Positions 7,170-53,162 of a stretch of 64,000 bases of DNA are shown in pieces; position 1 is the stretch's first letter, and every line of letters begins with the position of its first letter. The DNA comes from Deltaproteobacteria bacterium. GTDB lineage: Bacteria > Desulfobacterota > Desulfobacteria > Desulfobacterales > SG8-13. The stretch lies in NCBI GenBank assembly GCA_041299015.1, contig JBFYWB010000054.1:2526-66525 (forward strand), given 5' to 3'. The translations under genes were made by a program, and so were the position numbers. Below the pieces are notes generated by a model. It was not told where the DNA came from. It searched no databases and saw nothing but the letters and a program-made list of their open reading frames with translations.

Positions 7170-8639
7170 GTGACGGTCGACGCCTTTATCTGCCGGTGTA
7201 TCAGCGATACCCTCGATGGGTTGCGCGGCGGATTGTCCCTCTTTTCCGGCCCAAGCCGCGCCGCCGTGATATTCACCATTACACCCGACGCCCCGGTCCT
7301 TGTCTGTGATCCCCAAAACCTCCTGCGGGGTCACGAGCCCAGATTCAAAGAACTTTACCTGGACAGCGATCAGTGGCGCCGCAACATCTCCATCAGCAGG
7401 GACAAAAACAGGTTTAGCTACATACTGCCGGAAAAAAACCTTCAACTGGCTGGTCTCATATCCTGCGGCGGACGCTCCAGTTCGGTGTTTTTCCAAATGT
7501 GGTTCACCGATCACCATCCGGACATGTGTTCCATCGGGCCGACCGAGCGCTGGCTGGAACACGCGGCCTGGCGTTTTTCCCACGATATGGCCAACGATAA
7601 AGAACTATATACCGGGATATCGGGCAATTTCCTGCGCGAATTCGCCAGCCACGCTGTGCACGACTACATCGTCGACCGGATGAATGTCATCTTGGGGTGG
7701 GACAGCCAGCTGCGGATTTACCCGGTTCTTGAAGCGGTGCTCGGGATTTCGCGGACGCGTGAAGAACAGAAGATGCCCAGAGGTGAACTGGTATTCGTGG
7801 AACGACCGCTGTTGGGAAGCATCGACTATCTGGCACGATTTCCGGAATTGGAGCAACCCTTGCTCGACAACTTCAAGCATGTCCGTAAGATGCTCCAGGC
7901 GGTGGAAGATTCCGGTCGTCAACTCGTTTCAGATGGAAAGAGCATCGTCGGCATTATCGCCGGCGGCAGGCTGCCGCCTTTTTCGGTCACGGCAGATTTC
8001 AGAGGCGGTTTCGGCTTCCTCAGAATCAATGCGGAAGAGGTGTGCAGCTTTTCCGACGGCAGCTTCAAATCAACCACCCGCAAGGCCAAGCTGGTTCAAT
8101 TGGAGGAGGCCCTGCTCGAAGCAAAACTCGACCCCCAGATCGGCAACCATCTGTTTAAAACAACGGCCGCCTTGGTCCATGCCGCCGAAGAGTCGAAATC
8201 CGGTTGTACACTGGTCATCGACCTCAACGATAAACCGGTTGTCATCTCCGGTCAGAAACTGGCCGAGCCGCTCGATCTCCAGCAACCACACATACTGGAA
8301 CTGGCGAAATCGCTGTCCAAAGTGGACGGCGCCCTTCACATCGGTAAGGACCTGCATCTGCACGGATTTGCATGTCTGCTCGATGGTCGGGCGATACCGG
8401 GAGAGGATCGCGCGCGTGGGGCACGGTTCAACTCGGCCTTGCGGTTTACGGCCGAGCGGCCGGACCTCCTTGTGGTGGTGGTGTCGGTCGATCGGCCGGT
8501 TGCCGTTATCCAGGAAGGGGTTGAAGTCAGCGCCCAGTGCCAGTGGGTGCCCCTCACGAGTTGTCTATTCCGCCCATTGGCTCTCGATGCCTGGATTGGC
8601 GGGAATAAATCCGGAATTCTTCTTTCAGGAGCGGCCTGA
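7170..8639 (+). CDS. Protein with a C-terminal DisA_N/diadenylate-cyclase-like domain (degenerate RHR motif)
   Basis: 489 aa. The C-terminus reads VDGALHI ... LDGRAIPGEDRARGARFNSALRF ... LLVVVVSVDRPVAVIQEG. This follows the DAC pattern DGA(V/I)I ... GTRHRAA ... VVSEETG.IS, but RHR is replaced by RFN. GTG start is uncertain. Confidence 0.5.
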   Translation: MTVDAFICRCISDTLDGLRGGLSLFSGPSRAAVIFTITPDAPVLVCDPQNLLRGHEPRFKELYLDSDQWRRNISISRDKNRFSYILPEKNLQLAGLISCGGRSSSVFFQMWFTDHHPDMCSIGPTERWLEHAAWRFSHDMANDKELYTGISGNFLREFASHAVHDYIVDRMNVILGWDSQLRIYPVLEAVLGISRTREEQKMPRGELVFVERPLLGSIDYLARFPELEQPLLDNFKHVRKMLQAVEDSGRQLVSDGKSIVGIIAGGRLPPFSVTADFRGGFGFLRINAEEVCSFSDGSFKSTTRKAKLVQLEEALLEAKLDPQIGNHLFKTTAALVHAAEESKSGCTLVIDLNDKPVVISGQKLAEPLDLQQPHILELAKSLSKVDGALHIGKDLHLHGFACLLDGRAIPGEDRARGARFNSALRFTAERPDLLVVVVSVDRPVAVIQEGVEVSAQCQWVPLTSCLFRPLALDAWIGGNKSGILLSGAA

Positions 8640-16894: not shown

Positions 16895-17557
16895 ATGATG
16901 CCGCTGATGAAAAGCCTCCTATTCTTCGGAATTTGCGCGCTGTTGTTTGCTGTTCCGGTTCATGCCACCACGATGTACGTGAACGATATCGTTGAGATTA
17001 CCCTTCGTACCGGCCAGAGTCTCGACCACAAGATACTGAGCTTCCTCCAGTCCGGTCAGCGGCTTGAGGTCCTTCAAACGAACGACCAGTGGGCCCACGT
17101 GCGGACGGCAAATGGGAAAGAAGGCTGGGTCTTGACCCGCTACCTGACTCCTGAACCGACCAGCAAGATCAAACTGGAAAGGTTGGAGGAAAAGCAAAAA
17201 AGCGTTTTGGAGCAAAATGCGGCCTTACTTCAGGAAAACCAACTGCTCAAGGGCGAGAACAAGAAGCTTTCCAACGCTCTTTCATCAACGGATAAAGGCT
17301 TGAGCCAGATCCGCACTGAGTACGACGCACTCAAATCAGAATCGAGCGAATTCCTGGCATTGAAGGCCAAATACGAACAAACAGCCACCCGTCTCGATCA
17401 GGAAACCCGCAAAGCCAGCCAGCTCGAAGAGCATGTGGCGAGGCTCGAGCGCAGCTATGCGATCAAATGGTTTCTGGCCGGCTCGGGAGTTCTCCTGTTC
17501 GGTTTTGTGGTCGGATTCAGCCTCAAGCGCCAACGGCGGCGCCCGTCACTGCTCTAA
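16895..17557 (+). CDS. SH3 domain protein of the YgiM/TIGR04211 type (signal, SH3b, coiled coil, C-terminal TM)
   Basis: MMPLMKSLLFFGICALLFAVPVHA is the signal. The SH3b-like part is LEVLQTNDQWAHVRTANGKEGWVLTRYL. A coiled coil and the terminal TM WFLAGSGVLLFGFVVGF follow. The ATG has GAGGAAAG upstream. Confidence 0.7.
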   Translation: MMPLMKSLLFFGICALLFAVPVHATTMYVNDIVEITLRTGQSLDHKILSFLQSGQRLEVLQTNDQWAHVRTANGKEGWVLTRYLTPEPTSKIKLERLEEKQKSVLEQNAALLQENQLLKGENKKLSNALSSTDKGLSQIRTEYDALKSESSEFLALKAKYEQTATRLDQETRKASQLEEHVARLERSYAIKWFLAGSGVLLFGFVVGFSLKRQRRRPSLL

Positions 17558-17718
17558 TTCTCCTGATGCAGGGCATTTAATTCTGACTCAGGCGTGCCCT
17601 TTGCGGCGCTGTTTTTGACCGATTATTTTGCGTAGACTTGGGATGGCGGCACCTTCAGGGTAACTTAAATTAATCGAGGCCCTTGAAGTTGGGGTTCACG
17701 CTGCGACGACCGGCGTCC

Positions 17719-17997
17719 TCATTCCTCGGCATCCTCGTCGCTTTCATCATACGGCGCGTAATCAAAAGTCTTCACATCGAATGTTTTCGTCCCGTTTGAA
17801 TCGACCGAGACCCTTCCGGTTGCTTGGATCTCCTCATCGATCATGTTCAGCAGCTTTTTCCCGGTGCGGTTCATTTCGACGATGTATTCGTCCTCATCGG
17901 TCGAAATTTTGACGCCGGTGTTGTCATCGTCGTCATCCAATGGATCTACGAAACCGATGAGGGTGATTTCTTCCCTGGAATCTTTTTCTCTTTTCAT
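17719..17997 (-). CDS. Small acidic hypothetical protein (92 aa)
   Basis: Clean ORF MKREKDSREEITLIGFVDPLDDDDDNTG ... DESDEDAEE, preceded by a sigma-54-type promoter. Confidence 0.5.
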   Translation of the reverse strand: MKREKDSREEITLIGFVDPLDDDDDNTGVKISTDEDEYIVEMNRTGKKLLNMIDEEIQATGRVSVDSNGTKTFDVKTFDYAPYDESDEDAEE

Positions 17998-18066
17998 CTT
18001 GTCTCCCTCTTGTTGATAATCTCGTCGGGTCGGTCAGCGCTGCACACACTGAGGCCTGATTTCAAA

Positions 18067-18082
18067 AGCAATTCTTGTGCCG
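18067..18082 (-). promoter_or_regulatory. Sigma-54 (-24/-12) promoter candidate
   Basis: Minus strand reads CGGCAC-AAGAA-TTGCT with correct GG/GC spacing, about 70 nt upstream of the ATG at 17997. Confidence 0.45.
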
Positions 18083-18498
18083 CTCTCGTAACATTTGGGA
18101 ATTGTATCGATCAAACCCAATGGGCGATGTGACAGATAGAACTTGTTGTTCCGGTCTGACGGCCGGTGCCTGTCGAACCGCAATTCGAGGAATCCGCTAT
18201 CTAATTACAAGTAATTGAAAATATAATTATTTATCAGAATATCGGCACCGTTTATCCGCCGTGGAAATATTGGGGACGGTTATCGGGCCCATGCGTGACA
18301 GGATGGGAACACAAAATTCCTTTAAAGAAAAAAAACGGAACCGTCAGTTCTTTACTCTGCCTCTCCCGATCTGAATCCGTAAGAACGGAAAGCGGTATCC
18401 GATCACGGTTGCACTGCCAAGTCGTCTGAAATCAAAGTCCGGCGCCTTTCACGCTCACCGGTTGGTTGCTGAGGCTTTCTTCTCGAATTTTAATTTTT

Positions 18499-18514
18499 TG
18501 GCATTAACCTTGCT
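18499..18514 (+). promoter_or_regulatory. Sigma-54 (-24/-12) promoter candidate for the kamA operon
   Basis: TGGCAT-TAACC-TTGCT, about 240 nt upstream of the kamA ATG. Confidence 0.5.
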
Positions 18515-18753
18515 TAGCGATTGACAACACCTGGCCTTGTGACCTGGCCCCTGCCAATAAATAGACGAAAAAACGGCGGGCGGGCGATGTCTTCGCTCAC
18601 CGCTTATGTTTTCTCGCCCGGATTCCGCTGCTGGTTCGGAGCGGTAGACAATGTTCGATAGCTGTGCAAGCGCGACTGTCGGCGGCATGGGTTGCCAAGC
18701 GGTATTCGCGTACAGGTCCCCAATCGATCCACTCAGACAAAGGAGAACCGGGA

Positions 18754-20124
18754 ATGCATCCGAACCCATCATTTTTTCAACCTACCGTTGCCAATAATTC
18801 ACCGGATACCATACAGGGGAAGGAAGATGAGGAACCTCCGGGTAGTCAGGCAGCGGCTTCCGAGCCGACTGCCAGCTGCGGTGTGCGGCGACTTGCCCAC
18901 CCTAATGACGCGGCCATCGTCCTCAGATTCCCCCCCGATCGTATCGCCCGTACTTCTTTAAAAACGCGCGCTTTCCGGCGCAAATTTTTTCCCGGTGTTC
19001 CCGACAAGAACTGGAATGATTGGCAATGGCAGATCAGAAACCGGATCCGTCATTACGGCCAGCTTCAGATGATGCTGGATCTCTCTGCTCCGGAAAAAGG
19101 CGTCAGTGGCCATATCGGCCCCAAACTGCCCATGGGCATTACGCCATACTACATGAGTCTTTTGTCTGTTGACGATGCCGCCCAGCCTTTGCGGCGCACG
19201 GTGGTGCCGACGACAAGCGAGTTCGTCAAGTCGCCCGGTGAGGCGGAGGACCCACTCGGAGAAGAAAACCAGAGCCCGGTACCGGGATTGGTTCACCGAT
19301 ACCCCGACCGGGTCCTTTTGTTGGTACACGATTTTTGTTCCACCTATTGCCGCTACTGTACGCGGTCCCGAGTCGTGGGGCACGGGGCCATTCTCCCGAG
19401 CCGGTCGCGTCTCGAACAGGCGATCGATTATGTCCGTGCGACACCGTCCGTTCGTGATGTACTGGTGTCCGGCGGCGACCCGTTGACCCTCAATGACGAC
19501 CGTTTGGAGTGGATTCTGGCGCGTCTGCGTCGGATTTCCCATGTTGAGATCGTACGGATCGGAACCAAGATTCCCGCCGTTTTACCGCAGCGGGTCACCG
19601 GTCGCTTGGTGCGGATGCTGCGGAAGTATCACCCCCTCTGGATGAGCCTGCACTTTACCCATCCGGATGAGTGCACGCCGGAGGCCACCCGGGCCTGTGG
19701 AATGCTGGCCGATGCCGGTATTCCCCTGGGGTCGCAAACGGTTCTGCTCAAGGGGGTAAACGATACGGTAGACACCATGAAGTCGCTCTGCCACAATCTC
19801 ATGCGCATGCGCGTGCGGCCTTACTACCTCTACCAGTGCGACCCCATAACGGGTTCGGGTCATTTCCGCACATCGATTGCGCAGGGCTTGGAGGTCATTC
19901 GGGGTCTGAGAGGGTTTACCAGTGGGTATGCCGTGCCGACCTATGTCGTGGATGCGCCGGGCGGCGGCGGCAAGGTTCCGCTGATGCCCGATTACCTCGC
20001 CGGCCGTGAAGAATCCGATCTTTTGCTGCGCAACTATGAAGATCGGTTGTTCCGTTATCCGGATTGCCGGGGCGCCGATATCCAAACCGGCGCTTCTGCC
20101 CATCTGTCGGAATCCATACCATAA
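18754..20124 (+). CDS. kamA: Lysine 2,3-aminomutase (KamA family radical SAM/PLP enzyme)
   Basis: CSTYCRYCTRSR (CxxxCxxC), WNDWQWQIRNRI, VSGGDPL and PYYLYQCD. ATG at 18754 has AAAGGAGA upstream. A low-complexity extension of about 70 aa precedes the conserved core. Confidence 0.9.
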   Translation: MHPNPSFFQPTVANNSPDTIQGKEDEEPPGSQAAASEPTASCGVRRLAHPNDAAIVLRFPPDRIARTSLKTRAFRRKFFPGVPDKNWNDWQWQIRNRIRHYGQLQMMLDLSAPEKGVSGHIGPKLPMGITPYYMSLLSVDDAAQPLRRTVVPTTSEFVKSPGEAEDPLGEENQSPVPGLVHRYPDRVLLLVHDFCSTYCRYCTRSRVVGHGAILPSRSRLEQAIDYVRATPSVRDVLVSGGDPLTLNDDRLEWILARLRRISHVEIVRIGTKIPAVLPQRVTGRLVRMLRKYHPLWMSLHFTHPDECTPEATRACGMLADAGIPLGSQTVLLKGVNDTVDTMKSLCHNLMRMRVRPYYLYQCDPITGSGHFRTSIAQGLEVIRGLRGFTSGYAVPTYVVDAPGGGGKVPLMPDYLAGREESDLLLRNYEDRLFRYPDCRGADIQTGASAHLSESIP

Positions 20125-20273
20125 AGCTTACATTTATCCAGGTTATAGAATCAACGGGTTTCCGGTATGTGAAATGGTTCCGGAAACCCGCAAGGTTTTT
20201 CACCGGGCCGAATTTTGCCGGTGCGGAGAAGACATTCTCATTGAGGAGAACCATCCAAAACAGGCAGTTGACC

Positions 20274-21287
20274 ATGAAAATCGGACTTACCTACGACTTG
20301 CGCTCGGAGTACCTGGCTGCCGGGTTTAGTGAGGAGGAAACGGCCGAATTCGACCGTGACGATACCGTGGCCGCTATCGAAAAGGCCCTCCAGTCCCTGG
20401 GCCATTCAACCGACCGTATCGGTAGTGTGCGCAGCCTGTTCGGACGTCTTTCCAGCGGCGATCGGTGGGACCTTGTTTTCAACATTGCCGAGGGTCTCAA
20501 CGGCATCGGCCGGGAGGCCCAAGTGCCGGCGGCGTTGGATGTTTACGGTATTCCCTACACTTTTTCGGACCCCCTGGTGATGGCGCTGACCCTGCACAAG
20601 GGTATGACGAAGCGGGTTGTGCGCGATGCCGGCGTCCCGACAGCGGATTTTGGGGTGGTAAGATTCCGCAGCGAGGCAGAGCAGTTCTCCTTTCCGCCGC
20701 CGTATTTTATCAAACCATTGGCCGAAGGGACCGGTAAAGGGGTTTCACCGCAATCGATCGTTCGACGCTCGGAAGATCTTGCCAACGCCTGTGAGGCGCT
20801 GATCGCCGCCTTTCGTCAACCGGTTCTGGTCGAACGCTTTCTGCCGGGCAGAGAGTTTACGGTCGGTATCGTGGGTACCGGTGACCAGGCCAGGGTGATC
20901 GGCACCATCGAAGTGCATCTGCTGGCCGGCGCCGAACCCGAGGTCTACTCTTATGTCAACAAGGAACGTTACGAAGAACTGGTTGAATACCGGCTCGGTC
21001 GCCCGGATGACGATCCACCGGTGAAGGCGGCCGAAATTATCGCGTTGCGGGCCTGGCAGGTGCTCGAATGCCGCGATGCCGGCCGGATCGATCTGCGCTG
21101 CGATGAGAGGGGGCGGCCGCATTTCATGGAGGTTAACCCGCTGGCCGGTTTACACCCTTTTCATTCGGACCTTCCGATCATCTGCAACCACATCGGCATG
21201 CCCTATCAGGATCTGATCCGGGAAATCGTGGATTCCGCAGCAAAACGGATCCGGTCCCGTTGCGACTGCAAAGGAGCGATCGGCTGA
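20274..21287 (+). CDS. ATP-grasp ligase, D-alanine--D-alanine ligase-like (1 of 2)
   Basis: 337 aa. MKIGLTYDLRSEY ... an N-terminal pre-ATP-grasp domain, then FIKPLAEGTGKGV, REFTVGIVG, GRIDLRCDERGRPHFMEVNPLAGL. Confidence 0.8.
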   Translation: MKIGLTYDLRSEYLAAGFSEEETAEFDRDDTVAAIEKALQSLGHSTDRIGSVRSLFGRLSSGDRWDLVFNIAEGLNGIGREAQVPAALDVYGIPYTFSDPLVMALTLHKGMTKRVVRDAGVPTADFGVVRFRSEAEQFSFPPPYFIKPLAEGTGKGVSPQSIVRRSEDLANACEALIAAFRQPVLVERFLPGREFTVGIVGTGDQARVIGTIEVHLLAGAEPEVYSYVNKERYEELVEYRLGRPDDDPPVKAAEIIALRAWQVLECRDAGRIDLRCDERGRPHFMEVNPLAGLHPFHSDLPIICNHIGMPYQDLIREIVDSAAKRIRSRCDCKGAIG

Positions 21288-21288
21288 T

Positions 21289-22347
21289 ATGCGTGTGGCC
21301 GTCGTACACAACGCTGTAACCGATGACAGCGCCCCCGATGAACGCGACGTGCTCGTTCAGGCCGAGGCCATACACAACGCCCTCGACCTCTTGGCGCATC
21401 AGAGTTGCGTTGTTCCCTGTTCATTGGACCTCGAACGCGTCAAAGATCGGTTGGAACAGTTTCGACCGGAGATCGTCTTCAACCTGGTGGAGTCACTCGA
21501 TGGACAAGGGCGCCTGGCCCATTTGTTTCCCGCGCTGCTCGACGCGATGGCGGTTCCCTACACCGGTTCACCGACCTTGACGCTGATGGTGAGCACCCAT
21601 AAGATCATGGCCAAAGAAATCCTGGCAGGTTTCGGACTGCGGACGCCGACCTGGCTCGACCCCTTTCCGCCGGAACCATTGCGCCTGGCGCCTGCCGGTT
21701 CGTTGCGCCGGGGACGTTCGGAAAACGATCTCTGGATTGTCAAATCGGTGTGGGAGCATGCCTCTTTCGGTATGGAAGAAGACGCTCTGGTGACCGACGT
21801 CACCGAAGCGGAGATCGAGACGATCATAAAAGACCGGGCGCCCCGTCTCGGCGGGGCTTGTTTTGCCGAGGCTTACATAGACGGGCGTGAATTCAATTTG
21901 GCCGTGCTGGCCGGCCCAGATGGGCCCGAAGTCCTGCCGCCGGCCGAAATCATCTTCGAAGGCTATGACGACCGCAAACCTCGGATTGTCGGTTACCGTG
22001 CCAAATGGGCCCAGGATTCTTACGAATACCTTCACACCCCCCGACGGTTTGATTTTCCACCTGCGGATGACGGGCTGTTGACACGGCTCAAGGCTAATGC
22101 GGTCGCCTGTTGGCGAATTTTCGGGCTGGGCGGTTATGCGCGAGTCGATTTTCGAGTTGATGACTACGGCACGCCTTGGATCCTGGAGGTCAATACCAAC
22201 CCTTGCCTGTCGCCGGATGCCGGTTTTGCTGCCGCTCTGGCCCAAGCCGGTTTGTCTTACCCGGCTGCCGTGGAGAGGATCCTTGAAGACGGGTTGCGGG
22301 ACGACCCGCATGCGTGGGATAGGCGTCACCGTTTCGAGGGAGCTTGA
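21289..22347 (+). CDS. ATP-grasp ligase, D-alanine--D-alanine ligase-like (2 of 2)
   Basis: 352 aa. MRVAVVHNAV ..., WIVKSVWEHASFGM, REFNLAVL, ARVDFRVDDYGTPWILEVNTNPCLS. It starts 2 nt after the upstream stop. Confidence 0.8.
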   Translation: MRVAVVHNAVTDDSAPDERDVLVQAEAIHNALDLLAHQSCVVPCSLDLERVKDRLEQFRPEIVFNLVESLDGQGRLAHLFPALLDAMAVPYTGSPTLTLMVSTHKIMAKEILAGFGLRTPTWLDPFPPEPLRLAPAGSLRRGRSENDLWIVKSVWEHASFGMEEDALVTDVTEAEIETIIKDRAPRLGGACFAEAYIDGREFNLAVLAGPDGPEVLPPAEIIFEGYDDRKPRIVGYRAKWAQDSYEYLHTPRRFDFPPADDGLLTRLKANAVACWRIFGLGGYARVDFRVDDYGTPWILEVNTNPCLSPDAGFAAALAQAGLSYPAAVERILEDGLRDDPHAWDRRHRFEGA

Positions 22348-22352
22348 AACCG

Positions 22353-24605
22353 ATGCTGCGCATTCGCCGGATTTTTGATGACGTTCTGCCGGCCAACCGG
22401 GAGACCCTGGAACAGGTTAAGGCCATCCTGCGCGATCGCTTCAACAAGCTTCCCGAAGAAGAAATCGAGCAGATCGGCGAAAAACTGCGCAATCCGTTCA
22501 AACAGCGTTTTCGTCCCATCCTTTTCGTCGCCAAGACCCTGCGCAGCCGCGTGAAGGGGTTCGCGATGCTGCTGCACGAACCGGTAATCGGCTTCTGCTT
22601 TCTCGACTGGATCGCAACCGCCACCGGCAGAACCGGCGGCGGGTTGGGCGGTGCCCTTTACGACCGGGTCCGACGGGAGTCGGTGGCATTGGGCGTGGGG
22701 GGTCTGTTCTTCGAGTGTCTGCCGGACGATGCCGAAAACTGTTCCGACGAGGCCCTGTTGAGGGAAAACCGTGTCCGCCTTAGATTTTACGAGCAGTACG
22801 GCGCCCGGCCGATCATTCACACCGGCTATGAACTTCCGGTGAATCCGGGTGACAGCTGTATGCCCCACCTGGTATATGATGCCCTGGACGCCGACAAACC
22901 GCTGCGCCGCGTATTTGTGCGCAAAGTGGTGCAGGCCATCCTGGAACGAAAATACAGCCGGTACTGCCCGGCCGAATACGTCGAGAAAGTGGTGGCTTCC
23001 TTTCGAGAAGACCCGGTCGCGCTGCGCGACTTTCGCTATGTCAAACCGCAGGCCGTCAAGACGACGGTGGATGATCGCTCCATCGAACAGATCGCCCTGA
23101 TTGTCAATGACCGCCACCAGATCCACCACATGCATGAGCGCGGATACGTGGAGTCGCCCGTCAGAGTGAGCAGCATTCTGGCGGAGATCGAGAAAAACGG
23201 CCTCTTTGCCCGACTCAAACCGCGCACCTTTCCGGACAAAAACATCTACGGCGTTCACGACGCCGATTTCGTCAGTTATCTGCGGCATGCCTCTGCCGAT
23301 GTGCCCGAAGGCAAATCCCTTTATCCCTATGTTTTCCCGGTTCGCAACAAGACGCGTCCGCCAAAGGAACCCGCTGTTCTCTCAGGGTACTACTGCATCG
23401 ATACCTTCACCCCCATCAACCGCAACGCTTATCCGGCGGCCCGACGCGGAGTGGACTGCGCCCTGACCGCCGCCCGTGAAATTCTGGACGGCCGGCGCCT
23501 GGCCTACGCCCTGGTGCGCCCTCCGGGGCACCATGCCGAACGGCGGGTTTTCGGCGGGTTCTGTTATCTCAACAACAACGCCATTGCGGCCCAGTATCTG
23601 TGCGCGCACGGAAAAGTCGCCATTCTCGACATTGACTATCATCACGGCAACGGTCAGCAGGATATTTTTTACCGCCGGTCCGATGTTCTGACCGTCTCGA
23701 TCCACGGCCACCCCAGATTTGCCTACCCCTATTTTAGCGGTTTCGAAGACGAGCGCGGTGAAGGTGAAGGTGAGGGGTTCAATCTGAACCTTCCGTTGCC
23801 GGAAAATCTGGAAGGCGAAAAATACCGTAGGGCGCTGACCAAGGCGCTGAATCGAATCGAAGAGTTCAGTCCTCAATTTCTCCTGGTGGCGCTGGGGTTG
23901 GACACCGCCAAGGGCGACCCGACCGGCACCTGGTCCCTGAAGGCCAAAGACTTTGAAGAAAACGGACGTCTGATCGGAACTCTCGGGTTGCCGACGGTGG
24001 TCATTCAGGAAGGCGGCTACCGCACCCGCACTCTCGGCCAGAATGCCCGCAACTTTTTCGTTGGACTTGTTAAGACCCATATGAAATCGGGCCGCGGCCG
24101 CCAGCAAACGAAAGTCCGGCTGCACGGTGTTGTGTTTCGCTATGAGCTGCAGCCGCTGGACCCTGAAAGAATCCGCCGCTTAACGGAAATAACCGGGTTT
24201 TTTACGCCCGCCGAAGTAAAGGTGGCGGTCGAACTCGCCAATGAACGCTTGACCAAGGGCTTACCAAGCGGGTACCACTTCATCATGGCGGAGCACTACG
24301 GACGCCTGGCCGGTTATGCCTGTTATGGGCCGATTGCCTGTACTGCGTCGAGCTATGATGTTTACTGGATAGCGGTCCATCCGGACTATCAGGGCAAGGG
24401 CCTGGGACGCAGGATTTTGAAGGAGAGCGAACGCCTGATAATCGAGAGCGGTGGTACGCGCATTTACGTCGAAACATCCCAGCGGGCGCAATACGCCAGT
24501 ACCCGTGCGTTTTACGAAAGTTGCGGATATCGACTGGAGAGCGTGCTGACGGACTTCTATGCGCCCGGCGATGGAAAAGTGGTTTACTGCAAATCGTTGA
24601 CTTGA
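22353..24605 (+). CDS. Tri-domain protein: N-terminal GNAT-like, histone-deacetylase-family (Zn amidohydrolase), C-terminal GNAT acetyltransferase
   Basis: HDAC core: RPPGHHAERRVFGGFCYLNNNAIAA ... ILDIDYHHGNGQQDIFY ... GLDTAKGDP. C-terminal GNAT: VYWIAVHPDYQGKGLGRRILKESERL. The N-terminal 170 aa contain TGRTGGGLGGALYDRV (GNAT motif A-like). Confidence 0.85.
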   Translation: MLRIRRIFDDVLPANRETLEQVKAILRDRFNKLPEEEIEQIGEKLRNPFKQRFRPILFVAKTLRSRVKGFAMLLHEPVIGFCFLDWIATATGRTGGGLGGALYDRVRRESVALGVGGLFFECLPDDAENCSDEALLRENRVRLRFYEQYGARPIIHTGYELPVNPGDSCMPHLVYDALDADKPLRRVFVRKVVQAILERKYSRYCPAEYVEKVVASFREDPVALRDFRYVKPQAVKTTVDDRSIEQIALIVNDRHQIHHMHERGYVESPVRVSSILAEIEKNGLFARLKPRTFPDKNIYGVHDADFVSYLRHASADVPEGKSLYPYVFPVRNKTRPPKEPAVLSGYYCIDTFTPINRNAYPAARRGVDCALTAAREILDGRRLAYALVRPPGHHAERRVFGGFCYLNNNAIAAQYLCAHGKVAILDIDYHHGNGQQDIFYRRSDVLTVSIHGHPRFAYPYFSGFEDERGEGEGEGFNLNLPLPENLEGEKYRRALTKALNRIEEFSPQFLLVALGLDTAKGDPTGTWSLKAKDFEENGRLIGTLGLPTVVIQEGGYRTRTLGQNARNFFVGLVKTHMKSGRGRQQTKVRLHGVVFRYELQPLDPERIRRLTEITGFFTPAEVKVAVELANERLTKGLPSGYHFIMAEHYGRLAGYACYGPIACTASSYDVYWIAVHPDYQGKGLGRRILKESERLIIESGGTRIYVETSQRAQYASTRAFYESCGYRLESVLTDFYAPGDGKVVYCKSLT

Positions 24606-24954
24606 TGTTGAAAGAATCTGCCCGCGCCAAGACCGCAGCCACAGGCTTTCCCGGTATGCCACCTTGAAACTGGTCCGGCTGACCTTGAGCGCATGGCTAC
24701 TCGACAAGACTTCAAAACACCAGTTGGTATTCGGTTCTTGTGCCGGAGGCGCGAAGGTTGGCGGATGTGCCGACTTTCGCGCTTCCGTTCTGTGTTTATG
24801 TTTCGATTTTTTCGTTCACCTTACCGAAGACGACCCGATTGCGCGACACCGGATGAAAGGTTTTGAGTCCCTGCAGATGCCGTCGGCGATGGCGCCTCCG
24901 GGCCGGCAGATCCGGTCATAACGGAGCGAAAATCACCGATGCCGGGCCCTGTTC

Positions 24955-24984
24955 TTGACATTGCCGGCCCGTTTTTCCTATACT
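24955..24984 (+). promoter_or_regulatory. Sigma-70 promoter (TTGACA-18-TATACT)
   Basis: TTGACAttgccggcccgtttttccTATACT, 67 nt upstream of the ATG at 25051. Confidence 0.55.
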
Positions 24985-25050
24985 CCCGGAAAAATCGGAA
25001 GTGCTCTTGGGAGCTTTTTTATCTGTTTATCGGTGACAAGGAGGAAAACG

Positions 25051-25719
25051 ATGCTAAAACTCGGAGAGAAAGGCGCCATTCCCCAACGCGACAACGAAAC
25101 ATTTGCCATTGCGCCGCACATTCCCTGCGGGTTGGTAACACCTGAACTGTTGCGGCGCATAGCGGATACAGCCGAAAAGTTCAGTGCGCAGGCGATCAAG
25201 ATTACCGGAGCGACCCGCATTGCGATCGTGGGCCTCAAGGAAGAGGATATCGACGCCGTATGGGACGCTCTGCGCCTCGACAAGGGCGCTGCCGTGGGGT
25301 TGTGTGTTCGCAGCGTGAGAACCTGTCCCGGAAACACCTATTGCAAGCTGGGCCAGCAGGATGCCATTAAATTGGGATTGAAACTGGACGAGATCTATCA
25401 TGGCATGGAGTTGCCGGGTAAATTCAAGATGGCCGTGTCCGGCTGTCATCTGAGCTGTTCAGAGTCATGGGTGCGCGACATCGGCCTTATCGGAAAAAAG
25501 GATGGCTGGGTTCTGGTTATCGGGGGAAACGTCGGTGCAAACCCGCGGATCGCACAGGAGTGTGCTGGCGGTCTCGATGACGATGCGGCGCTGGCGGCAA
25601 TCGACAAGGTGGTCGGCTACTACCGGGAAAACGCCCAAAAAGGGGAGCGCCTGGGAAAGATGCTCGACCGCGTCGGACTGGAGGCCCTCCAGAAGCTGGT
25701 TGCAATTGCGTCGCAATAG
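25051..25719 (+). CDS. Small nitrite/sulfite reductase-family protein (assimilatory-type low-molecular-weight sulfite reductase-like, siroheme/4Fe-4S)
   Basis: 222 aa from an ATG with AAGGAGG upstream. Cys cluster CPGNTYC ... CHLSC (Cx5C ... Cx3C) and a NIR_SIR ferredoxin-like half domain. Confidence 0.75.
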   Translation: MLKLGEKGAIPQRDNETFAIAPHIPCGLVTPELLRRIADTAEKFSAQAIKITGATRIAIVGLKEEDIDAVWDALRLDKGAAVGLCVRSVRTCPGNTYCKLGQQDAIKLGLKLDEIYHGMELPGKFKMAVSGCHLSCSESWVRDIGLIGKKDGWVLVIGGNVGANPRIAQECAGGLDDDAALAAIDKVVGYYRENAQKGERLGKMLDRVGLEALQKLVAIASQ

Positions 25720-25875: not shown

Positions 25876-25959
25876 ATGCCAATGAAACCACTTCAGACAG
25901 CGACGATCGGCTGCGGATGCTTGTTTTTTTGCTTTAGAAGCGTCCATCCGGCTGAATGA
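25876..25959 (+). CDS. Candidate leader peptide (27 aa) with a Phe-codon cluster
   Basis: MPMKPLQTATIGCGCLFFCFRSVHPAE. It has three TTT codons within four codons (25924-25935). Its last codons overlap an antiterminator arm. The SD is weak. Confidence 0.3.
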   Translation: MPMKPLQTATIGCGCLFFCFRSVHPAE

Positions 25960-25971
25960 CGCAGTTCATTG

Positions 25972-26020
25972 AACCGCCCCGGATGGACCGCGACGCAGTC
26001 CATCCGGGGCGGTTTTTTTT
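25972..26020 (+). terminator. Strong intrinsic terminator (17-bp perfect stem plus T-run of 8)
   Basis: AACCGCCCCGGATGGAC-cgcgacgca-GTCCATCCGGGGCGGTT-TTTTTT. Confidence 0.8.
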
Positions 26021-26023
26021 AAG

Positions 26024-26049
26024 CCCCGGAAATCTGCCGGGGTTTTTTT
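26024..26049 (+). terminator. Second tandem intrinsic terminator
   Basis: CCCCGG-aaatctg-CCGGGG-TTTTTTT. Confidence 0.7.
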
Positions 26050-26144
26050 ATGGGCTTCGTGAGTGCCGCAAGGCCGGGTCACGGATCGTGACACCCGTCA
26101 TGGCGCCCGAGACTGACCTGAATAACCGCGCAAGGGAAAAAACG

Positions 26145-28070
26145 ATGATACTCGAATTGACAACAAACATCACACCTGCTGAAAAGTCTGTGCTGCATGA
26201 TGCTCTCCGGGATAAGCGCTGCGATTTTCGGGAACTTCCGGACACCGATATCCAGCGCATCGGCATCATGAACCGAGGGATTTGCGAAGCTGATTTTTTC
26301 AACCGTCTGCCCGGTGTGACCCGGACGGTGCCGGTCAAAACGCCCTACAAACTCGTCAGCCGCCAAATGCATCCGCAGGATACGCTGGTAAGCGTCGGAA
26401 ACGTGCTCGTCGGTGGTGACCGTATCACGGTTATCGCCGGCCCATGCGCCATCGAAAGTCGCGAACAGGCGCTGACCATCGCCCGCTGGGTCAAGAAAGC
26501 CGGTGCGGTCCTGTTCAGAGGCGGGGCATTTAAACCGCGGACTTCTCCTTATTCTTTTCAGGGCCTCGAAGAGGAAGGACTCAAGATCCTGGCCGAAGTC
26601 CGTGAAACCTTGGACATGTGTGTCGTCACCGAAATGACCGCTCCTTCCCAGGCCGAGCTCATGCAAAAGTACGTCGACGTGGTCCAGATCGGCGCCCGCA
26701 ACATGCAGAACTTCGAACTACTCAAGGTGGTCGGCCGTATGGGCAAACCGGTTCTTCTGAAGCGCGGTCTGGCCGGCACGATCGAGGAATGGCTTATGTC
26801 GGCCGAATATATCCTGTCCGAAGGGAATGCTCAGATTATGCTGTGTGAGCGCGGTATTCGCACCTTTGAACCTTACACACGCAACACTCTTGACCTCACC
26901 GCCATTCCGGTCCTGAGAAATTTAACCCACCTGCCGATCATCATCGATCCGAGTCATGCCACCGGCATTCGCGAGAAAGTCAGCCCCATGGCCCGGGCCG
27001 CCATTGCCGCCGGTGCCGACGGGCTTATGATCGAGGTCCATCATGAACCCGAAAAGGCGCTTTCCGACGGTCCGCAGAGTCTTTACCCCCTCCAATTCGG
27101 TCAGCTGATGCGAGACCTTTACGTGATAGCGCCGGTAGTCGGCAAGCAGCTCGACTTCGGTTACCTGGACAAGGCCCGAGCCGTGGCCATGCGCAGCCGA
27201 CGCGCTAACGGCATCCGGCAGAGGGCGGCATTCATGGGGCGCGTCGGCACTTTCAGCCACAAGGCGTGCCGGCAGTATTTCGGCAGTGAAGTGGAGGCTC
27301 TGCCGGTGGCCTCTTTCAGGGCGGTGTTCGAGGCCGTGAAATACGATACCGCCGACTTCGGCGTGGTTCCTCTGGAGAACTCTCTCAGCGGCAGTATTCA
27401 CGAAAACTTCGATTTTCTAAATGACTACGATTTGAAAATCATCGGTGAGATTAAACTGCGCATCATGCATCACCTGATGGCGAATCAGGGTGTCGAGATC
27501 GGCGGCATCCGGCGCGTTTTGTCCCATCCCCAGGTTTTCGGCCAGTGCCGCCAGTTTCTCGAACAGCACGACTGGGAGCTTGTTTCGGTCAGCGACACCG
27601 CTGCGGCCGCCCAGCGGGTGGCCAACGGCAGAAACAACGCAGATGCCGCCATTGCCAGTCTGGTTGCCGCCGAAGAATACGGATTGAAAGTGATAGCGGA
27701 GAATATCGAAACCAACCCGCGCAATTACACCCGCTTCGTCGTCATCGGCAAGTCTCCCCTCTACAAAGGGCCAATCGACAAGACATCGCTCATCTGTTCC
27801 ACTCGCAACGAGCCCGGAGCCCTATACGAAACGCTAAAGATTTTTGCCGAAAACCGCATCAACCTGATCAAGCTCGAATCCCGTCCCCTTCAAGGGGAAC
27901 CTTGGCGGTATATGTTCTACATGGATATCGAGGCGGATCTCGGTGCCGATGCCCTGAAACCCGTGCGGAAGGCCCTGGAACAAAAGACTGACTACTTGAA
28001 AATTCTCGGCACCTACGGCGAAGTCCCCGAAACGTTGCCGGTTGAAGGTGCCGATTCCCACCGGGTTTAG
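26145..28070 (+). CDS. Fusion protein: regulatory ferredoxin-like domain, 3-deoxy-7-phosphoheptulonate (DAHP) synthase type I-beta, prephenate dehydratase, ACT domain
   Basis: DAHPS: ITVIAGPCAIESREQ, FRGGAFKPRTSPYSFQGL, DPSHATG. PDT: FMGRVGTFSHKAC, VVPLENSLSGSI, TRFVVIG. ACT: CSTRNEPGALYETLKIF ... LIKLESRP. The ATG at 26145 is in frame with the track ORF. Confidence 0.9.
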   Translation: MILELTTNITPAEKSVLHDALRDKRCDFRELPDTDIQRIGIMNRGICEADFFNRLPGVTRTVPVKTPYKLVSRQMHPQDTLVSVGNVLVGGDRITVIAGPCAIESREQALTIARWVKKAGAVLFRGGAFKPRTSPYSFQGLEEEGLKILAEVRETLDMCVVTEMTAPSQAELMQKYVDVVQIGARNMQNFELLKVVGRMGKPVLLKRGLAGTIEEWLMSAEYILSEGNAQIMLCERGIRTFEPYTRNTLDLTAIPVLRNLTHLPIIIDPSHATGIREKVSPMARAAIAAGADGLMIEVHHEPEKALSDGPQSLYPLQFGQLMRDLYVIAPVVGKQLDFGYLDKARAVAMRSRRANGIRQRAAFMGRVGTFSHKACRQYFGSEVEALPVASFRAVFEAVKYDTADFGVVPLENSLSGSIHENFDFLNDYDLKIIGEIKLRIMHHLMANQGVEIGGIRRVLSHPQVFGQCRQFLEQHDWELVSVSDTAAAAQRVANGRNNADAAIASLVAAEEYGLKVIAENIETNPRNYTRFVVIGKSPLYKGPIDKTSLICSTRNEPGALYETLKIFAENRINLIKLESRPLQGEPWRYMFYMDIEADLGADALKPVRKALEQKTDYLKILGTYGEVPETLPVEGADSHRV

Positions 28071-39840: not shown

Positions 39841-39856
39841 TGGCATGCAAATTGCT
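39841..39856 (+). promoter_or_regulatory. Sigma-54 (-24/-12) promoter candidate
   Basis: TGGCAT-GCAAA-TTGCT directly after an AT-rich island. Confidence 0.5.
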
Positions 39857-53065: not shown

Positions 53066-53081
53066 TGGCACACAAGTTGCT
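53066..53081 (+). promoter_or_regulatory. Sigma-54 (-24/-12) promoter, near-perfect consensus
   Basis: TGGCAC-ACAAG-TTGCT, about 85-95 nt upstream of the first flavoprotein gene and preceded by a 150-nt AT-rich region. Confidence 0.6.
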
Positions 53082-53113: not shown

Positions 53114-53162
53114 TTTAACCTTATTATAATCAAAAAAACAGACCGCTAAAGTGAAGCCGAAC

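What the first reader, a model, noticed from the sequence alone, without database searches (positions are those of the whole stretch)
18499..24605. Translationally coupled operon: lysine 2,3-aminomutase, two Ddl-like ATP-grasp ligases and a GNAT-HDAC-GNAT protein (candidate beta-lysine-derived product pathway)
Four genes sit behind a sigma-54 element with tight junctions (21287/21289 and 22347/22353). KamA makes beta-lysine. KamA plus a GNAT is the known route to N-epsilon-acetyl-beta-lysine (AblA/AblB in methanogens). In B. subtilis, kamA shares an operon with the acetyltransferase yodP and a deacetylase. Here the acetyltransferase and a histone-deacetylase-type amidohydrolase are fused in one 750-aa protein carrying GNAT-like modules at both ends. 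Two paralogous D-Ala-D-Ala-ligase-type ATP-grasp enzymes are inserted between the genes. The known osmolyte pathway does not explain them. They imply ATP-dependent amide-bond formation on beta-lysine, giving a dipeptide, oligomer or conjugate, with an acetyl group possibly acting as a transient protecting group.
Basis: partly seen in the sequence, partly recalled or inferred. Interest (0 to 1): 0.65.

Follow-up and report, generated by a model that had tools for sequence, protein, structure and literature searches.

The report
Conserved beta-lysine ligase and acetylase operon
A four-gene operon (lysine 2,3-aminomutase, two non-canonical D-Ala-D-Ala-ligase-like enzymes, and one protein fusing two acetyltransferase domains to a polyamine-type deacetylase) is real and is kept together in bacteria of at least four phyla; it most likely builds an undescribed amide-linked beta-lysine compound.

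Summary
Window 18499-24790 is one transcription unit. It has a sigma-54 promoter match (18499-18514), then kamA (18754-20124), ATP-grasp 1 (20274-21287), ATP-grasp 2 (21289-22347) and a GNAT-APAH/HDAC-GNAT protein (22353-24605), then a strong terminator hairpin (24744-24787). KamA keeps the radical-SAM cysteines, the PLP lysine and both lysine epsilon-amine-binding aspartates of Clostridium lysine 2,3-aminomutase. Both ATP-grasp proteins keep every ATP/Mg/catalytic residue of E. coli DdlB. Their D-Ala specificity residues are replaced, differently in each paralogue, and they score far below the Ddl cut-offs. The deacetylase domain is acetylpolyamine-amidohydrolase type with an intact active site. 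The N-terminal domain is a divergent GNAT. The four genes occur in the same order in 55 of 65 informative loci from Desulfobacterota, Alpha- and Gammaproteobacteria, Planctomycetota and Dehalococcoidales. No other neighbour is conserved, no AblB is present, and I found no paper on the cassette. The best reading is a beta-lysine-derived amide product made with acetylation and deacetylation steps; the product is unknown. Cassette KamAs also carry a disordered N-terminal tail with a near-invariant acidic-Pro-Pro motif, which was not in the finding. Kind: new variant of a known type. Interest 0.6.

The parts
18499..18514 (+). sigma-54 (-24/-12) promoter match TGGCATTAACCTTGCT, 240 nt upstream of the kamA start
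   Evidence: Sequence. Three matches in the window against 0.16 expected. A slightly looser form of the pattern lies upstream of kamA in 11 of 55 related loci, background about 0.01 per 900 nt.
18754..20124 (+). kamA: lysine 2,3-aminomutase-type radical SAM/PLP enzyme (456 aa), with RBS AAGGAG before the ATG
   Evidence: 2A5H E=2e-138. CxxxCxxC (C195/C199/C202), R204, D363 and D400 (= LAM D293/D330) and K407 are conserved. NCBIfam AblA model 480 bits, below the 525 cut-off; KamA subfamily model passed. Gene call of 456 aa.
18823..18843 (+). Acidic-Pro-Pro motif EDEEPPG (KamA residues 24-30) inside a disordered N-terminal extension of about 74 aa that Clostridium LAM lacks
   Evidence: [DE]PP is present in 53 of 55 cassette KamA tails, against 6.9 expected from shuffles. 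E27-P28-P29 are invariant in alignment A3. Residues 1-65 have pLDDT below 50, block means 26-31.
20155..20190 (+). Stable hairpin (GGGUUUCCGG...CCGGAAACCC) in the 149-nt kamA-grasp1 spacer, followed by a U5 run; possible attenuator or processing/stability element
   Evidence: 149-nt spacer MFE -45.6 kcal/mol, z = -2.07. In 14 related loci this position instead holds a CxxCxxCC-domain gene.
20274..21287 (+). ATP-grasp ligase 1 (337 aa), Ddl-like fold but not Ddl
   Evidence: PF07478 E=5e-24. Ddl models 148 bits against a 243 cut-off. DdlB catalytic residues are invariant in 60 of 60 orthologues. Specificity positions are changed to A15, T150, E216, D282.
21289..22347 (+). ATP-grasp ligase 2 (352 aa), paralogue of ligase 1 (about 26-30% identity)
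   Evidence: PF07478 E=1.6e-16. Ddl models 99 bits against a 243 cut-off. Catalytic residues are invariant in 66 of 66 orthologues, except E270, which is E in 64 and D in 2. Specificity positions are changed to D15, A150, W216, A281, G282. Cross-hit identities.
22353..22997 (+). Fusion protein, N-terminal divergent GNAT domain (residues about 1-215) with an invariant G97-x-G99 CoA-loop motif
   Evidence: 18 of 18 orthologues hit PF00583/PF13508. Profile search gives weak hits to GNATs, including a streptothricin acetyltransferase (3pp9, E=0.012). Secondary-structure order.
23100..24077 (+). Fusion protein, acetylpolyamine-amidohydrolase (APAH)-type HDAC domain (residues about 250-575)
   Evidence: PF00850 E=2e-76. 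Best solved relatives are all APAHs (9gkz, 6phr, 3men, 3q9b; E 1e-62 to 1e-76). H393/H394, D426/D428/H430, D517 and Y556 are invariant in A1.
24120..24605 (+). Fusion protein, C-terminal canonical GNAT domain (residues about 590-750, motif Q-G-K-G-L-G), plus the stop codon
   Evidence: PF00583 E=2e-17. PDB 2r7h (Desulfovibrio GNAT Dde_3044) E=1e-40, TM 0.95. This domain is a separate ORF, or is placed before the N-GNAT/HDAC gene, in some phyla.
24744..24787 (+). Terminator-like hairpin (20 pairs, 12 G-C) followed by TTCTGTGTTT; end of the operon
   Evidence: The next gene has its own sigma-70-like promoter at 24955-24984.

Best explanation
This is a self-contained four-gene biosynthetic cassette. 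In this organism it is transcribed from a sigma-54 promoter. It most likely turns L-lysine into an amide-linked beta-lysine derivative that stays inside the cell.

Proposed steps:
1. KamA isomerises L-lysine to beta-lysine. All substrate and cofactor residues are shown to be conserved; activity is inferred.
2. A GNAT domain acetylates one amino group, most likely the epsilon-amine. This blocks it and prevents self-condensation or lactam formation. Inferred.
3. The two paralogous ATP-grasp ligases each form one amide bond through an acyl-phosphate. Both are catalytically intact, and each has its own strictly conserved non-Ddl substrate pocket. Ligase 1 carries two acidic residues (E216, D282 in DdlB numbering) in the nucleophile subsite, which suits a cationic amine partner. 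Intact catalytic residues and altered pockets are shown; the substrates are inferred.
4. The APAH-type deacetylase removes an N-acetyl group from an aliphatic amine chain, either as a deprotection step or to interconvert acetylated and free forms. The second GNAT caps another amine. Inferred.

[quoted passage not shown] The tools cannot tell which.
For: - Gene content and boundaries.
- KamA: 2A5H E=2e-138; CxxxCxxC, R204, D363/D400 (= D293/D330 of LAM) and K407 are conserved and invariant in 25 orthologues.
- Ligases: K97, K144, E180, E187, K215, R255, D257, E270 and N272 of DdlB are conserved in 60/60 and 64-66/66 orthologues. E15, S150, Y216, S281 and L282 are replaced by family-specific residues. 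Ddl model scores are far below the cut-offs.
- Deacetylase: best matches are all acetylpolyamine amidohydrolases, and the Zn/His/Tyr residues are invariant.
- Both GNATs keep the CoA-loop glycines.
- Synteny: kamA-grasp1-grasp2-fusion in the same order and strand in 55 of 65 informative loci from Desulfobacterota, Alpha-/Gammaproteobacteria, Planctomycetota and Dehalococcoidales.
- No other conserved neighbour, no transporter, and the flanks differ between taxa.
- The fusion is 71-89% identical across Desulfobacterales and 50-64% across phyla, which indicates strong purifying selection.
- The fusion matched no AblB family model among its NCBIfam hits at E<=0.01.
- GC content is like the surroundings.
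Against: - There are no product, expression or phenotype data of any kind.
- An acetyltransferase and a deacetylase in one polypeptide could equally be a synthesis/turnover pair or a regulatory switch rather than protect/deprotect chemistry.
- Eight of 65 informative loci have the fusion protein without the other three genes nearby. One (L066) has the ligases without kamA. The parts can therefore be separated.
- The pocket inferences rest on an alignment to DdlB at about 25-30% identity. Position 15 lies next to an insertion.
- No Rosetta-stone fusion of the ligases or KamA with the GNAT/HDAC protein appeared among the 150 best representatives.
- The role of the conserved acidic-Pro-Pro tail of KamA is not explained by this scheme.
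Confidence: 0.55

Rival explanations
1. The operon is an N-epsilon-acetyl-beta-lysine (NeABL) osmolyte system with built-in turnover. KamA plus a GNAT domain make NeABL, and the APAH domain degrades it on osmotic downshift. The ATP-grasp enzymes play only an accessory role, for example making a minor beta-lysine dipeptide or a storage form.
For: KamA scores best against the AblA model (480 bits). NeABL resembles N-acetylcadaverine-type APAH substrates (APAH-type domain). Many hosts are marine or saline taxa such as Desulfohalobiaceae, Desulfatitalea alkaliphila, Methyloceanibacter and Sneathiella. Bacterial ablA genes are linked to osmotic control by Na+ riboswitches (PMC9337991).
Against: No AblB family match. 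Two ligases with invariant catalytic residues and their own conserved pockets are retained in 55 of 65 loci, which is hard to square with an accessory role. No Na+ or other riboswitch is present. The KamA score is below the AblA equivalog cut-off.
Confidence: 0.15
2. The operon is a protein- or peptide-directed system. Beta-lysine, or another group, is attached by the ATP-grasp enzymes to a protein carboxylate or amine. The target could be the acidic Pro-Pro tail of KamA acting as a built-in carrier (LysW/RimK-like logic). Alternatively, the GNAT/HDAC protein is an AcuA/AcuC-like reversible protein-lysine acetylation switch.
For: Cassette KamAs have a disordered N-terminal tail with a near-invariant [DE]-P-P motif (53 of 55, against 6.9 expected). 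GNAT plus HDAC pairs are known as protein acetylation switches (AcuA/AcuC; own knowledge). ATP-grasp enzymes that modify acidic protein tails exist (RimK, LysX, TTL; own knowledge). The C-terminal GNAT has a sub-threshold RimI resemblance (49 bits against a cut-off of 86).
Against: The ligases are Ddl-type, not RimK/LysX-type. The HDAC domain groups with small-molecule APAHs rather than with protein deacetylases. No separate carrier protein is conserved. An internal Glu-Pro-Pro is not a known ATP-grasp acceptor.
Confidence: 0.12
3. The operon is a lysine catabolic (fermentation-type) pathway that starts with beta-lysine, analogous to the Clostridium kam/kdd/kce route or the B. subtilis yodT-kamA operon with an acetyl-protected intermediate.
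For: KamA is the first enzyme of lysine fermentation.
Against: No beta-lysine 5,6-aminomutase, 3,5-diaminohexanoate dehydrogenase, aminotransferase or CoA-transferase is present in the cassette or conserved next to it. ATP-consuming ligases are anabolic.
Confidence: 0.03
4. The two ATP-grasp genes are ordinary D-Ala-D-Ala ligases for peptidoglycan that happen to lie next to kamA.
For: Best Pfam, NCBIfam and PDB hits are Ddl.
Against: Scores of 148 and 99 bits against a cut-off of 243. E15, S150, Y216 and L282 are replaced in both paralogues, and S281 in ligase 2. The genes show fixed synteny with kamA and the GNAT/HDAC gene across phyla, with no mur/ftsQ context.
Confidence: 0.02

Closest known systems
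AblA/AblB N-epsilon-acetyl-beta-lysine pathway of methanogens (also in some bacteria)
   Same: A lysine 2,3-aminomutase lies in an operon with a GNAT acetyltransferase, and beta-lysine is the committed intermediate. KamA here scores best against the AblA model.
   Different: No AblB-family GNAT. Two ATP-grasp ligases and an APAH-type deacetylase are added. KamA is below the AblA equivalog cut-off and has an extra disordered tail carrying an acidic-Pro-Pro motif.
NAGGN pathway (Ngg: GNAT plus ATP-grasp bifunctional enzyme; AsnO) making N-acetylglutaminylglutamine amide
   Same: A GNAT and an ATP-grasp ligase combine to make an N-acetylated dipeptide compatible solute. This comparison of logic rests on my own knowledge of Sagot et al. 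2010.
   Different: Different substrate (glutamine, not beta-lysine). No aminomutase and no deacetylase. The GNAT is fused to the ligase rather than to an HDAC. Homology to Ngg was not tested here.
PylB/PylC of pyrrolysine biosynthesis
   Same: A radical-SAM lysine isomerase is followed by a Ddl-superfamily ATP-grasp ligase that makes an (iso)peptide bond with the rearranged amino acid (own knowledge).
   Different: PylB is not a KamA-family enzyme. PylC was not among the solved-structure matches of either ligase at E<=0.001. There is no PylD, and acetylation/deacetylation modules are absent from Pyl.
Acetylpolyamine amidohydrolases (APAH; Mycoplana ramosa, Marinobacter, Burkholderia, Pseudomonas structures)
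   Same: The HDAC domain is 35-40% identical by the Foldseek alignments over the whole catalytic domain, with an intact active site.
   Different: Known APAHs are stand-alone catabolic enzymes. Here the domain sits between two GNAT domains and is tied to kamA and two ligases. E117 of the M. ramosa enzyme aligns with Phe, with an invariant Asp two residues earlier.
L-amino-acid ligase pairs in small-peptide pathways (for example RizA/RizB, BacD) and acetyl protect/deprotect logic (arginine biosynthesis, bialaphos)
   Same: Two sequential Ddl-like ligases build a di- or tripeptide, and an N-acetyl group serves as a removable protecting group (own knowledge).
   Different: Those clusters are narrow-range secondary metabolism with exporters or resistance genes. 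This cassette is highly conserved over several phyla and has no transporter.
EpmA/EpmB beta-lysylation of EF-P
   Same: A KamA-family aminomutase supplies beta-lysine for amide attachment to a lysine epsilon-amine.
   Different: KamA here scores 242 bits on the EpmB model against a cut-off of 369. No EpmA (LysRS-like) gene is present. The ligases are ATP-grasp enzymes.

Membership tests
Lysine 2,3-aminomutase (KamA/AblA) | Radical-SAM CxxxCxxC cluster motif, PLP-binding lysine, and the two aspartates that bind the lysine epsilon-ammonium (D293, D330 of C. subterminale LAM) plus the carboxylate-binding arginine | tested here: met
   The alignment to 2A5H (E=2e-138) shows C195/C199/C202, R204, D363, D400 and K407. 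All are invariant in 25 orthologues.
Lysine 2,3-aminomutase (KamA/AblA) | Score above the curated NCBIfam equivalog cut-off (TIGR03820 AblA, 525.4 bits) | tested here: not met
   480.2 bits. The protein passes only the KamA-family subfamily model TIGR00238 (344 against 199). NCBI names its homologues 'KamA family radical SAM protein'.
AblA/AblB N-epsilon-acetyl-beta-lysine operon | Adjacent AblB-type beta-lysine N-acetyltransferase | tested here: not met
   NCBIfam hits of the fusion protein at E<=0.01 are only RimI-like and N-acetylglutamate-synthase-like models, all below cut-off. No AblB model is among them.
AblA/AblB N-epsilon-acetyl-beta-lysine operon | Salt-induced expression and NeABL accumulation | not testable with these tools
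   Needs culture, transcriptomics and NMR or LC-MS.
D-alanine--D-alanine ligase (Ddl) | Score above the curated Ddl model cut-offs | tested here: not met
   Best model NF002378: 147.9 bits (ligase 1) and 99.2 bits (ligase 2), against a cut-off of 243.
D-alanine--D-alanine ligase (Ddl) | D-Ala-binding residues E15, S150, Y216, S281, L282 (E. coli DdlB) | tested here: not met
   Ligase 1 has A, T, E, S, D and ligase 2 has D, A, W, A, G. Each set is conserved in at least 53 of 60-66 orthologues.
ATP-grasp carboxylate-amine ligases (superfamily) | ATP/Mg2+ and acyl-phosphate catalytic residues (DdlB K97, K144, E180, E187, K215, R255, D257, E270, N272) | tested here: met
   All are invariant in ligase 1 orthologues (60/60). 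In ligase 2 orthologues all are invariant (66/66) except E270, which is E in 64 and D in 2.
Acetylpolyamine amidohydrolase / class II HDAC | Zn ligands (D-x-H ... D), tandem catalytic His, catalytic Tyr; closest solved relatives are APAHs | tested here: met
   H393/H394, D426/D428/H430, D517 and Y556 are invariant. The top PDB hits 9gkz, 6phr, 3men and 3q9b are all APAHs. Substrate specificity itself is not testable here.
GNAT acetyltransferase (N-terminal domain) | GNAT fold and acyl-CoA pyrophosphate-binding loop (Q/R-x-x-G-x-G/A) | tested here: met
   18 of 18 orthologues hit PF00583/PF13508 (best 1.8e-9; window copy 0.088). G97-x-G99 is invariant. The model shows a GNAT-like order of strands and helices.
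EpmB (EF-P beta-lysylation) | EpmB equivalog score and a partner EpmA gene | tested here: not met
   242 bits against a cut-off of 369. No LysRS-like gene is in the cassette or conserved beside it.
AcuA/AcuC-type protein acetylation switch | The GNAT and HDAC act on a protein lysine (for example acetyl-CoA synthetase) | not testable with these tools
   The HDAC domain groups with small-molecule APAHs rather than with AcuC-like class I enzymes, which argues against this. Substrate assays are needed.

The most novel reading that the evidence does not exclude
The cassette makes a previously undescribed, phylogenetically widespread beta-lysine-based metabolite. This would be an N-acetylated beta-lysine peptide osmolyte or a short oligo-beta-lysine/polyamine-like cation. 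It would be assembled by two new-specificity ATP-grasp ligases using acetyl protect/deprotect chemistry. The invariant acidic-Pro-Pro motif in KamA's disordered tail would serve as the docking or carrier site that organises the enzymes.
Probability: 0.3. Interest if true: 0.75.

Novelty: new variant of a known kind. Interest (0 to 1): 0.6.

Why it matters

This cassette is strongly conserved. The best 80 loci come from sulfate reducers, marine Alphaproteobacteria and Planctomycetota, among others. The cassette couples beta-lysine formation to two dedicated ligases and an acetylation/deacetylation module.

This points to an unrecognised primary-metabolism product, such as a stress solute, a polycation or a nitrogen store, in environmentally dominant anaerobes. 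The cassette also offers two ATP-grasp ligases with new substrate pockets and a natural GNAT-deacetylase-GNAT fusion for enzymology. All hypotheses are directly testable by expressing four genes.

Tried and rejected
- Literature. Terms combined aminomutase, beta-lysine, ATP-grasp, deacetylase, APAH, amidoligases, kamA and Dde_304x. No paper describes the cassette. Two searches probably failed on tokenisation of '2,3-aminomutase'. The Iyer/Aravind amidoligase paper could not be opened.
- Riboswitch or known RNA in the 240-nt leader, or anywhere in 17500-25100: none at E<=1. The leader is conserved only in the closest relative.
- Extra conserved neighbours (transporter, regulator, enhancer-binding protein): none. 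All recurrent ORF clusters are the four genes, their shadow ORFs, an optional CxxCxxCC gene, or clade-specific flanks.
- Solitary copies of the fusion gene (8 loci): their neighbours are unrelated (acyltransferase, M1 peptidase, SecDF, nitrilase-GNAT) and give no alternative context.
- Rosetta-stone fusions with KamA or the ligases: none among the 150 best 50%-identity representatives.
- Fold search of the full-length model: dominated by the HDAC domain and uninformative for the N-terminal domain. That domain was resolved through Pfam hits of orthologues instead.
- AlphaFold of KamA, to see whether the tail docks on the core: the tail is simply disordered.
- EF-P link. An EF-P paralogue is in the window but 16 kb away, and no EF-P match was found in any of the related loci fetched up to that point. 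I rejected it as evidence.
- Glutamate or arginine 2,3-aminomutase reading of KamA: rejected, because both lysine-binding aspartates are kept and those models score lower.

Full report

Window 18499-24790 contains four co-directional genes: kamA (18754-20124), an ATP-grasp gene (20274-21287), a second ATP-grasp gene (21289-22347), and a 750-aa gene (22353-24605). Gene calls on near-identical NCBI MAG contigs of a Desulfobacteraceae bacterium give the same four products of 456, 337, 352 and 750 aa.

Pfam finds Radical_SAM plus LAM_C in the first gene. It finds Dala_Dala_lig_C in the two middle genes, and Hist_deacetyl plus a C-terminal GNAT in the last.

- grasp1/grasp2: TGA-t-ATG at 21287/21289.
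- grasp2/fusion: stop at 22347, ATG at 22353. Met1 is invariant in orthologues.

kamA and the first ligase are not coupled. They are separated by 149 nt that fold into a stable hairpin followed by a short U run.

The sigma-54 match TGGCATTAACCTTGCT lies at 18499-18514. The pattern TGGCAY-N5-TTGCW occurs three times in the window against 0.16 expected. A slightly looser form of it is found upstream of kamA in 11 of 55 related loci, all Desulfobacterota, against a background of about 0.01 per 900 nt. A 20-bp-stem terminator-like hairpin at 24744-24787 closes the unit, and the next gene has its own sigma-70-like promoter. No known RNA family matches the leader or any other part of the region. GC content is like the surroundings.

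**2. What the four proteins are**

*KamA.* It aligns with Clostridium subterminale lysine 2,3-aminomutase (PDB 2A5H) at E=2e-138. It keeps the CxxxCxxC cluster motif (C195/C199/C202), the carboxylate-binding Arg (R204), the PLP lysine (K407) and both aspartates that hold the lysine epsilon-ammonium (D293/D330 of LAM = D363/D400 here). All are invariant in 25 orthologues. From published work on glutamate 2,3-aminomutase (my own knowledge), those two Asp residues are replaced in the glutamate enzyme. Free L-lysine is therefore the most likely substrate. NCBIfam ranks the AblA model first (480 bits), but below its equivalog cut-off (525). Only the KamA-family subfamily model is passed, and EpmB scores much lower (242 against 369).

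*The two ligases.* They resemble Ddl in fold (best PDB hits all Ddl, E 1e-23 and 1e-15). They reach only 148 and 99 bits on the Ddl model whose cut-off is 243.
- Every ATP/Mg/acyl-phosphate residue (K97, K144, E180, E187, K215, R255, D257, E270, N272) is conserved in both families.
- The D-Ala-binding positions are replaced by residues specific to each paralogue. E15/S150/Y216/S281/L282 become A/T/E/S/D in ligase 1 and D/A/W/A/G in ligase 2.

Both are therefore probably active ligases, neither is Ddl, and they have different substrates. The two acidic residues in the nucleophile subsite of ligase 1 suggest a cationic amine partner. This is an inference from a distant alignment.

*The 750-aa protein.* It has three domains.
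- The middle domain is 35-40% identical (Foldseek alignments) to solved acetylpolyamine amidohydrolases. These are its best sequence and fold matches. The tandem His, the Zn ligands and the catalytic Tyr are invariant.
- The C-terminal domain is a canonical GNAT. Its closest structure is the Desulfovibrio protein Dde_3044 (2R7H, E=1e-40, TM 0.95).
- The N-terminal 215 residues are a divergent GNAT. The window copy is marginal on PF00583 (E=0.088), but all 18 orthologues scanned hit it (best 1.8e-9). The G-x-G of the CoA loop is invariant, and the model has the GNAT order of strands and helices.
- A profile of this domain weakly matches several GNAT structures, including a streptothricin acetyltransferase (E=0.012). 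Streptothricin acetyltransferases acetylate a beta-lysine beta-amine (my own knowledge). This is a lead, not a test.
- No AblB family model appears among the protein's NCBIfam hits.

**3. Conservation**

The fusion protein has more than 120 cluster representatives at 71% identity or higher over its full length, mostly from Desulfobacterales. The best 80 loci come from Desulfobacterota, Alphaproteobacteria (Methyloceanibacter, Sneathiella, Rhodospirillales), a gammaproteobacterium, Planctomycetota, a Cytophagia MAG and a Dehalococcoidales MAG, at 50-88% identity.

Of the 65 loci with at least 4.3 kb of upstream sequence:
- 55 have kamA-ligase1-ligase2-fusion in the same order and strand.
- 1 has the ligases without kamA.
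- 1 looks decayed.
- 8 have the fusion gene alone.

Clustering all ORFs of the loci finds no other conserved neighbour: no transporter, no regulator. The one exception is an optional CxxCxxCC-domain (PF03692) gene of about 173 aa, inserted between kamA and ligase 1 in 14 loci. The neighbours of the solitary fusion genes are unrelated to each other.

The C-terminal GNAT is a separate ORF in many Planctomycetota. In two loci it is encoded before the N-GNAT/HDAC gene. At 50% clustering, the N-GNAT plus APAH two-domain core is the commonest architecture. In the window the flanking genes are housekeeping and unrelated.

**4.

Cassette KamAs carry an N-terminal extension of 55-100 aa that the Clostridium enzyme lacks. 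It is poorly conserved and predicted disordered (residues 1-65 have pLDDT below 50). It nevertheless contains an acidic-Pro-Pro motif (EDEEPPG in the window, residues 24-30) in 53 of 55 orthologues from all phyla. Composition-preserving shuffles of the same tails predict 6.9. E27-P28-P29 are invariant in the 25-sequence alignment.

Possible roles are a docking motif for the partner enzymes, an EF-P-dependent polyproline pause, or an acceptor/carrier site. None could be tested. An EF-P paralogue of the EfpL/YeiP type is present in the window at 1808-2380. It is 16 kb away and not linked in other genomes.

**5. Most likely mechanism**

Shown:
- an intact lysine 2,3-aminomutase;
- two intact non-Ddl ATP-grasp ligases with distinct pockets;
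- an intact APAH-type deacetylase;
- two GNAT domains with CoA loops;
- a fixed four-gene cassette under strong purifying selection, without an exporter.

Inferred:
- L-lysine is converted to beta-lysine.
- A GNAT blocks one amine, most plausibly the epsilon-amine. This gives the kind of N-acetyl-aminoalkyl end that APAHs hydrolyse.
- The two ligases add two amide bonds.
- The APAH domain removes the acetyl group, or interconverts acetylated and free forms.
- The second GNAT caps another amine.

The absence of a transporter and the breadth and strength of conservation favour an intracellular primary-metabolism product (a compatible solute, polyamine-like cation or nitrogen store) over a secreted antibiotic. 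I put 0.55 on 'amide-linked beta-lysine derivative distinct from plain NeABL'. The specific protect/deprotect scheme gets perhaps 0.3.

Rivals:
- NeABL synthesis plus turnover, with the ligases accessory: 0.15.
- A protein- or carrier-directed modification system, including an AcuA/AcuC-like switch or use of the KamA tail: 0.12.
- Lysine catabolism: 0.03.
- Ordinary Ddl genes: 0.02.

**6. Comparison with what is known**

The cassette works partly like AblA/AblB (aminomutase plus GNAT). It also works partly like the NAGGN pathway (GNAT plus ATP-grasp giving an acetylated dipeptide solute), PylB/PylC (a radical-SAM lysine isomerase followed by a Ddl-superfamily ligase) and ligase pairs such as RizA/RizB. 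It is a member of none of these:
- The AblA equivalog cut-off is missed and AblB is absent.
- The Ddl cut-offs and specificity residues are not met.
- EpmB and EpmA criteria are not met.

It is a member of the KamA family, the ATP-grasp superfamily, the APAH-type HDAC group and the GNAT superfamily.

Ten literature searches found no description of this gene combination. Public annotations are generic: 'KamA family radical SAM protein', 'GNAT family N-acetyltransferase', 'AcuC-like deacetylase/GNAT'.

**7. Verdict**

I rate it a new variant of a known kind (a beta-lysine pathway with new partners), interest 0.6.

Noticed in passing
window 18754-18975 (KamA residues 1-74; motif at 18823-18843): Cassette-specific disordered N-terminal extension of KamA with a near-invariant acidic-Pro-Pro motif (EDEEPPG). 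It is present in 53 of 55 orthologues across phyla, against 6.9 expected. A second short 'RFP ... TRAF' motif sits just before the catalytic core. Function unknown: docking site, polyproline pause, or carrier.
   Followed up: partly
L004:7446-7967, L077:7107-7637 and 12 other related loci (between kamA and ligase 1); window 20125-20273 is the equivalent spacer: An optional Cys-rich gene of about 173 aa (CxxCxxxGxxCCQ; Pfam PF03692 CxxCxxCC, putative Zn/Fe-chelating domain) is inserted in the cassette in 14 loci of Desulfobacterota and Planctomycetota. The window has only a hairpin-containing 149-nt spacer at that position.
   Followed up: partly
L074:9992-10606 and L080:9968-10450; separate ORFs in L042, L066, L071-L073, L075, L077, L078: The C-terminal GNAT domain of the fusion is a separate gene in many Planctomycetota. 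In two loci it is encoded upstream of the N-GNAT/HDAC gene. The three-domain protein is therefore modular, and the N-GNAT plus APAH pair is the constant core.
   Followed up: partly
window 1808-2380 (-) and 2651-4384 (+): An EF-P paralogue of the EfpL/YeiP type (loop TPSARGAN; 30% identical to E. coli EF-P) lies next to a divergently transcribed YcaO-domain gene. It is 16 kb from the cassette and no link was found.
   Followed up: partly
window 39841-39856 (+) and 53066-53081 (+): Two further exact matches to the sigma-54 pattern TGGCAY-N5-TTGCW. The second lies about 70 nt upstream of the ORF starting at 53151.
   Followed up: no
window 7170-8639 (+): A diadenylate cyclase (DAC domain) with N-terminal DACND and DACNH sensor domains. 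c-di-AMP is an osmoregulatory messenger, but the gene is 10 kb from the cassette and not conserved next to it.
   Followed up: no
window 25956-28070 (+): A single 704-aa ORF combines DAHP synthase, prephenate dehydratase and an ACT domain. This is an unusual fusion of the first shikimate-pathway enzyme with a terminal phenylalanine-branch enzyme.
   Followed up: no
window 40154-42031 (-): Acetyl-CoA hydrolase/transferase fused to a C-terminal GNAT domain (625 aa).
   Followed up: no
window 47340-52820 (+): A very large ORF (1826 aa) that I did not examine.
   Followed up: no
L071:6894-9938: In this Planctomycetales long-read MAG the cassette looks decayed or mis-assembled. An ORF carries only a KamA-like tail (REDEEPPGSG) without the catalytic core, and ligase 2 is split into two fragments.
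   Followed up: no
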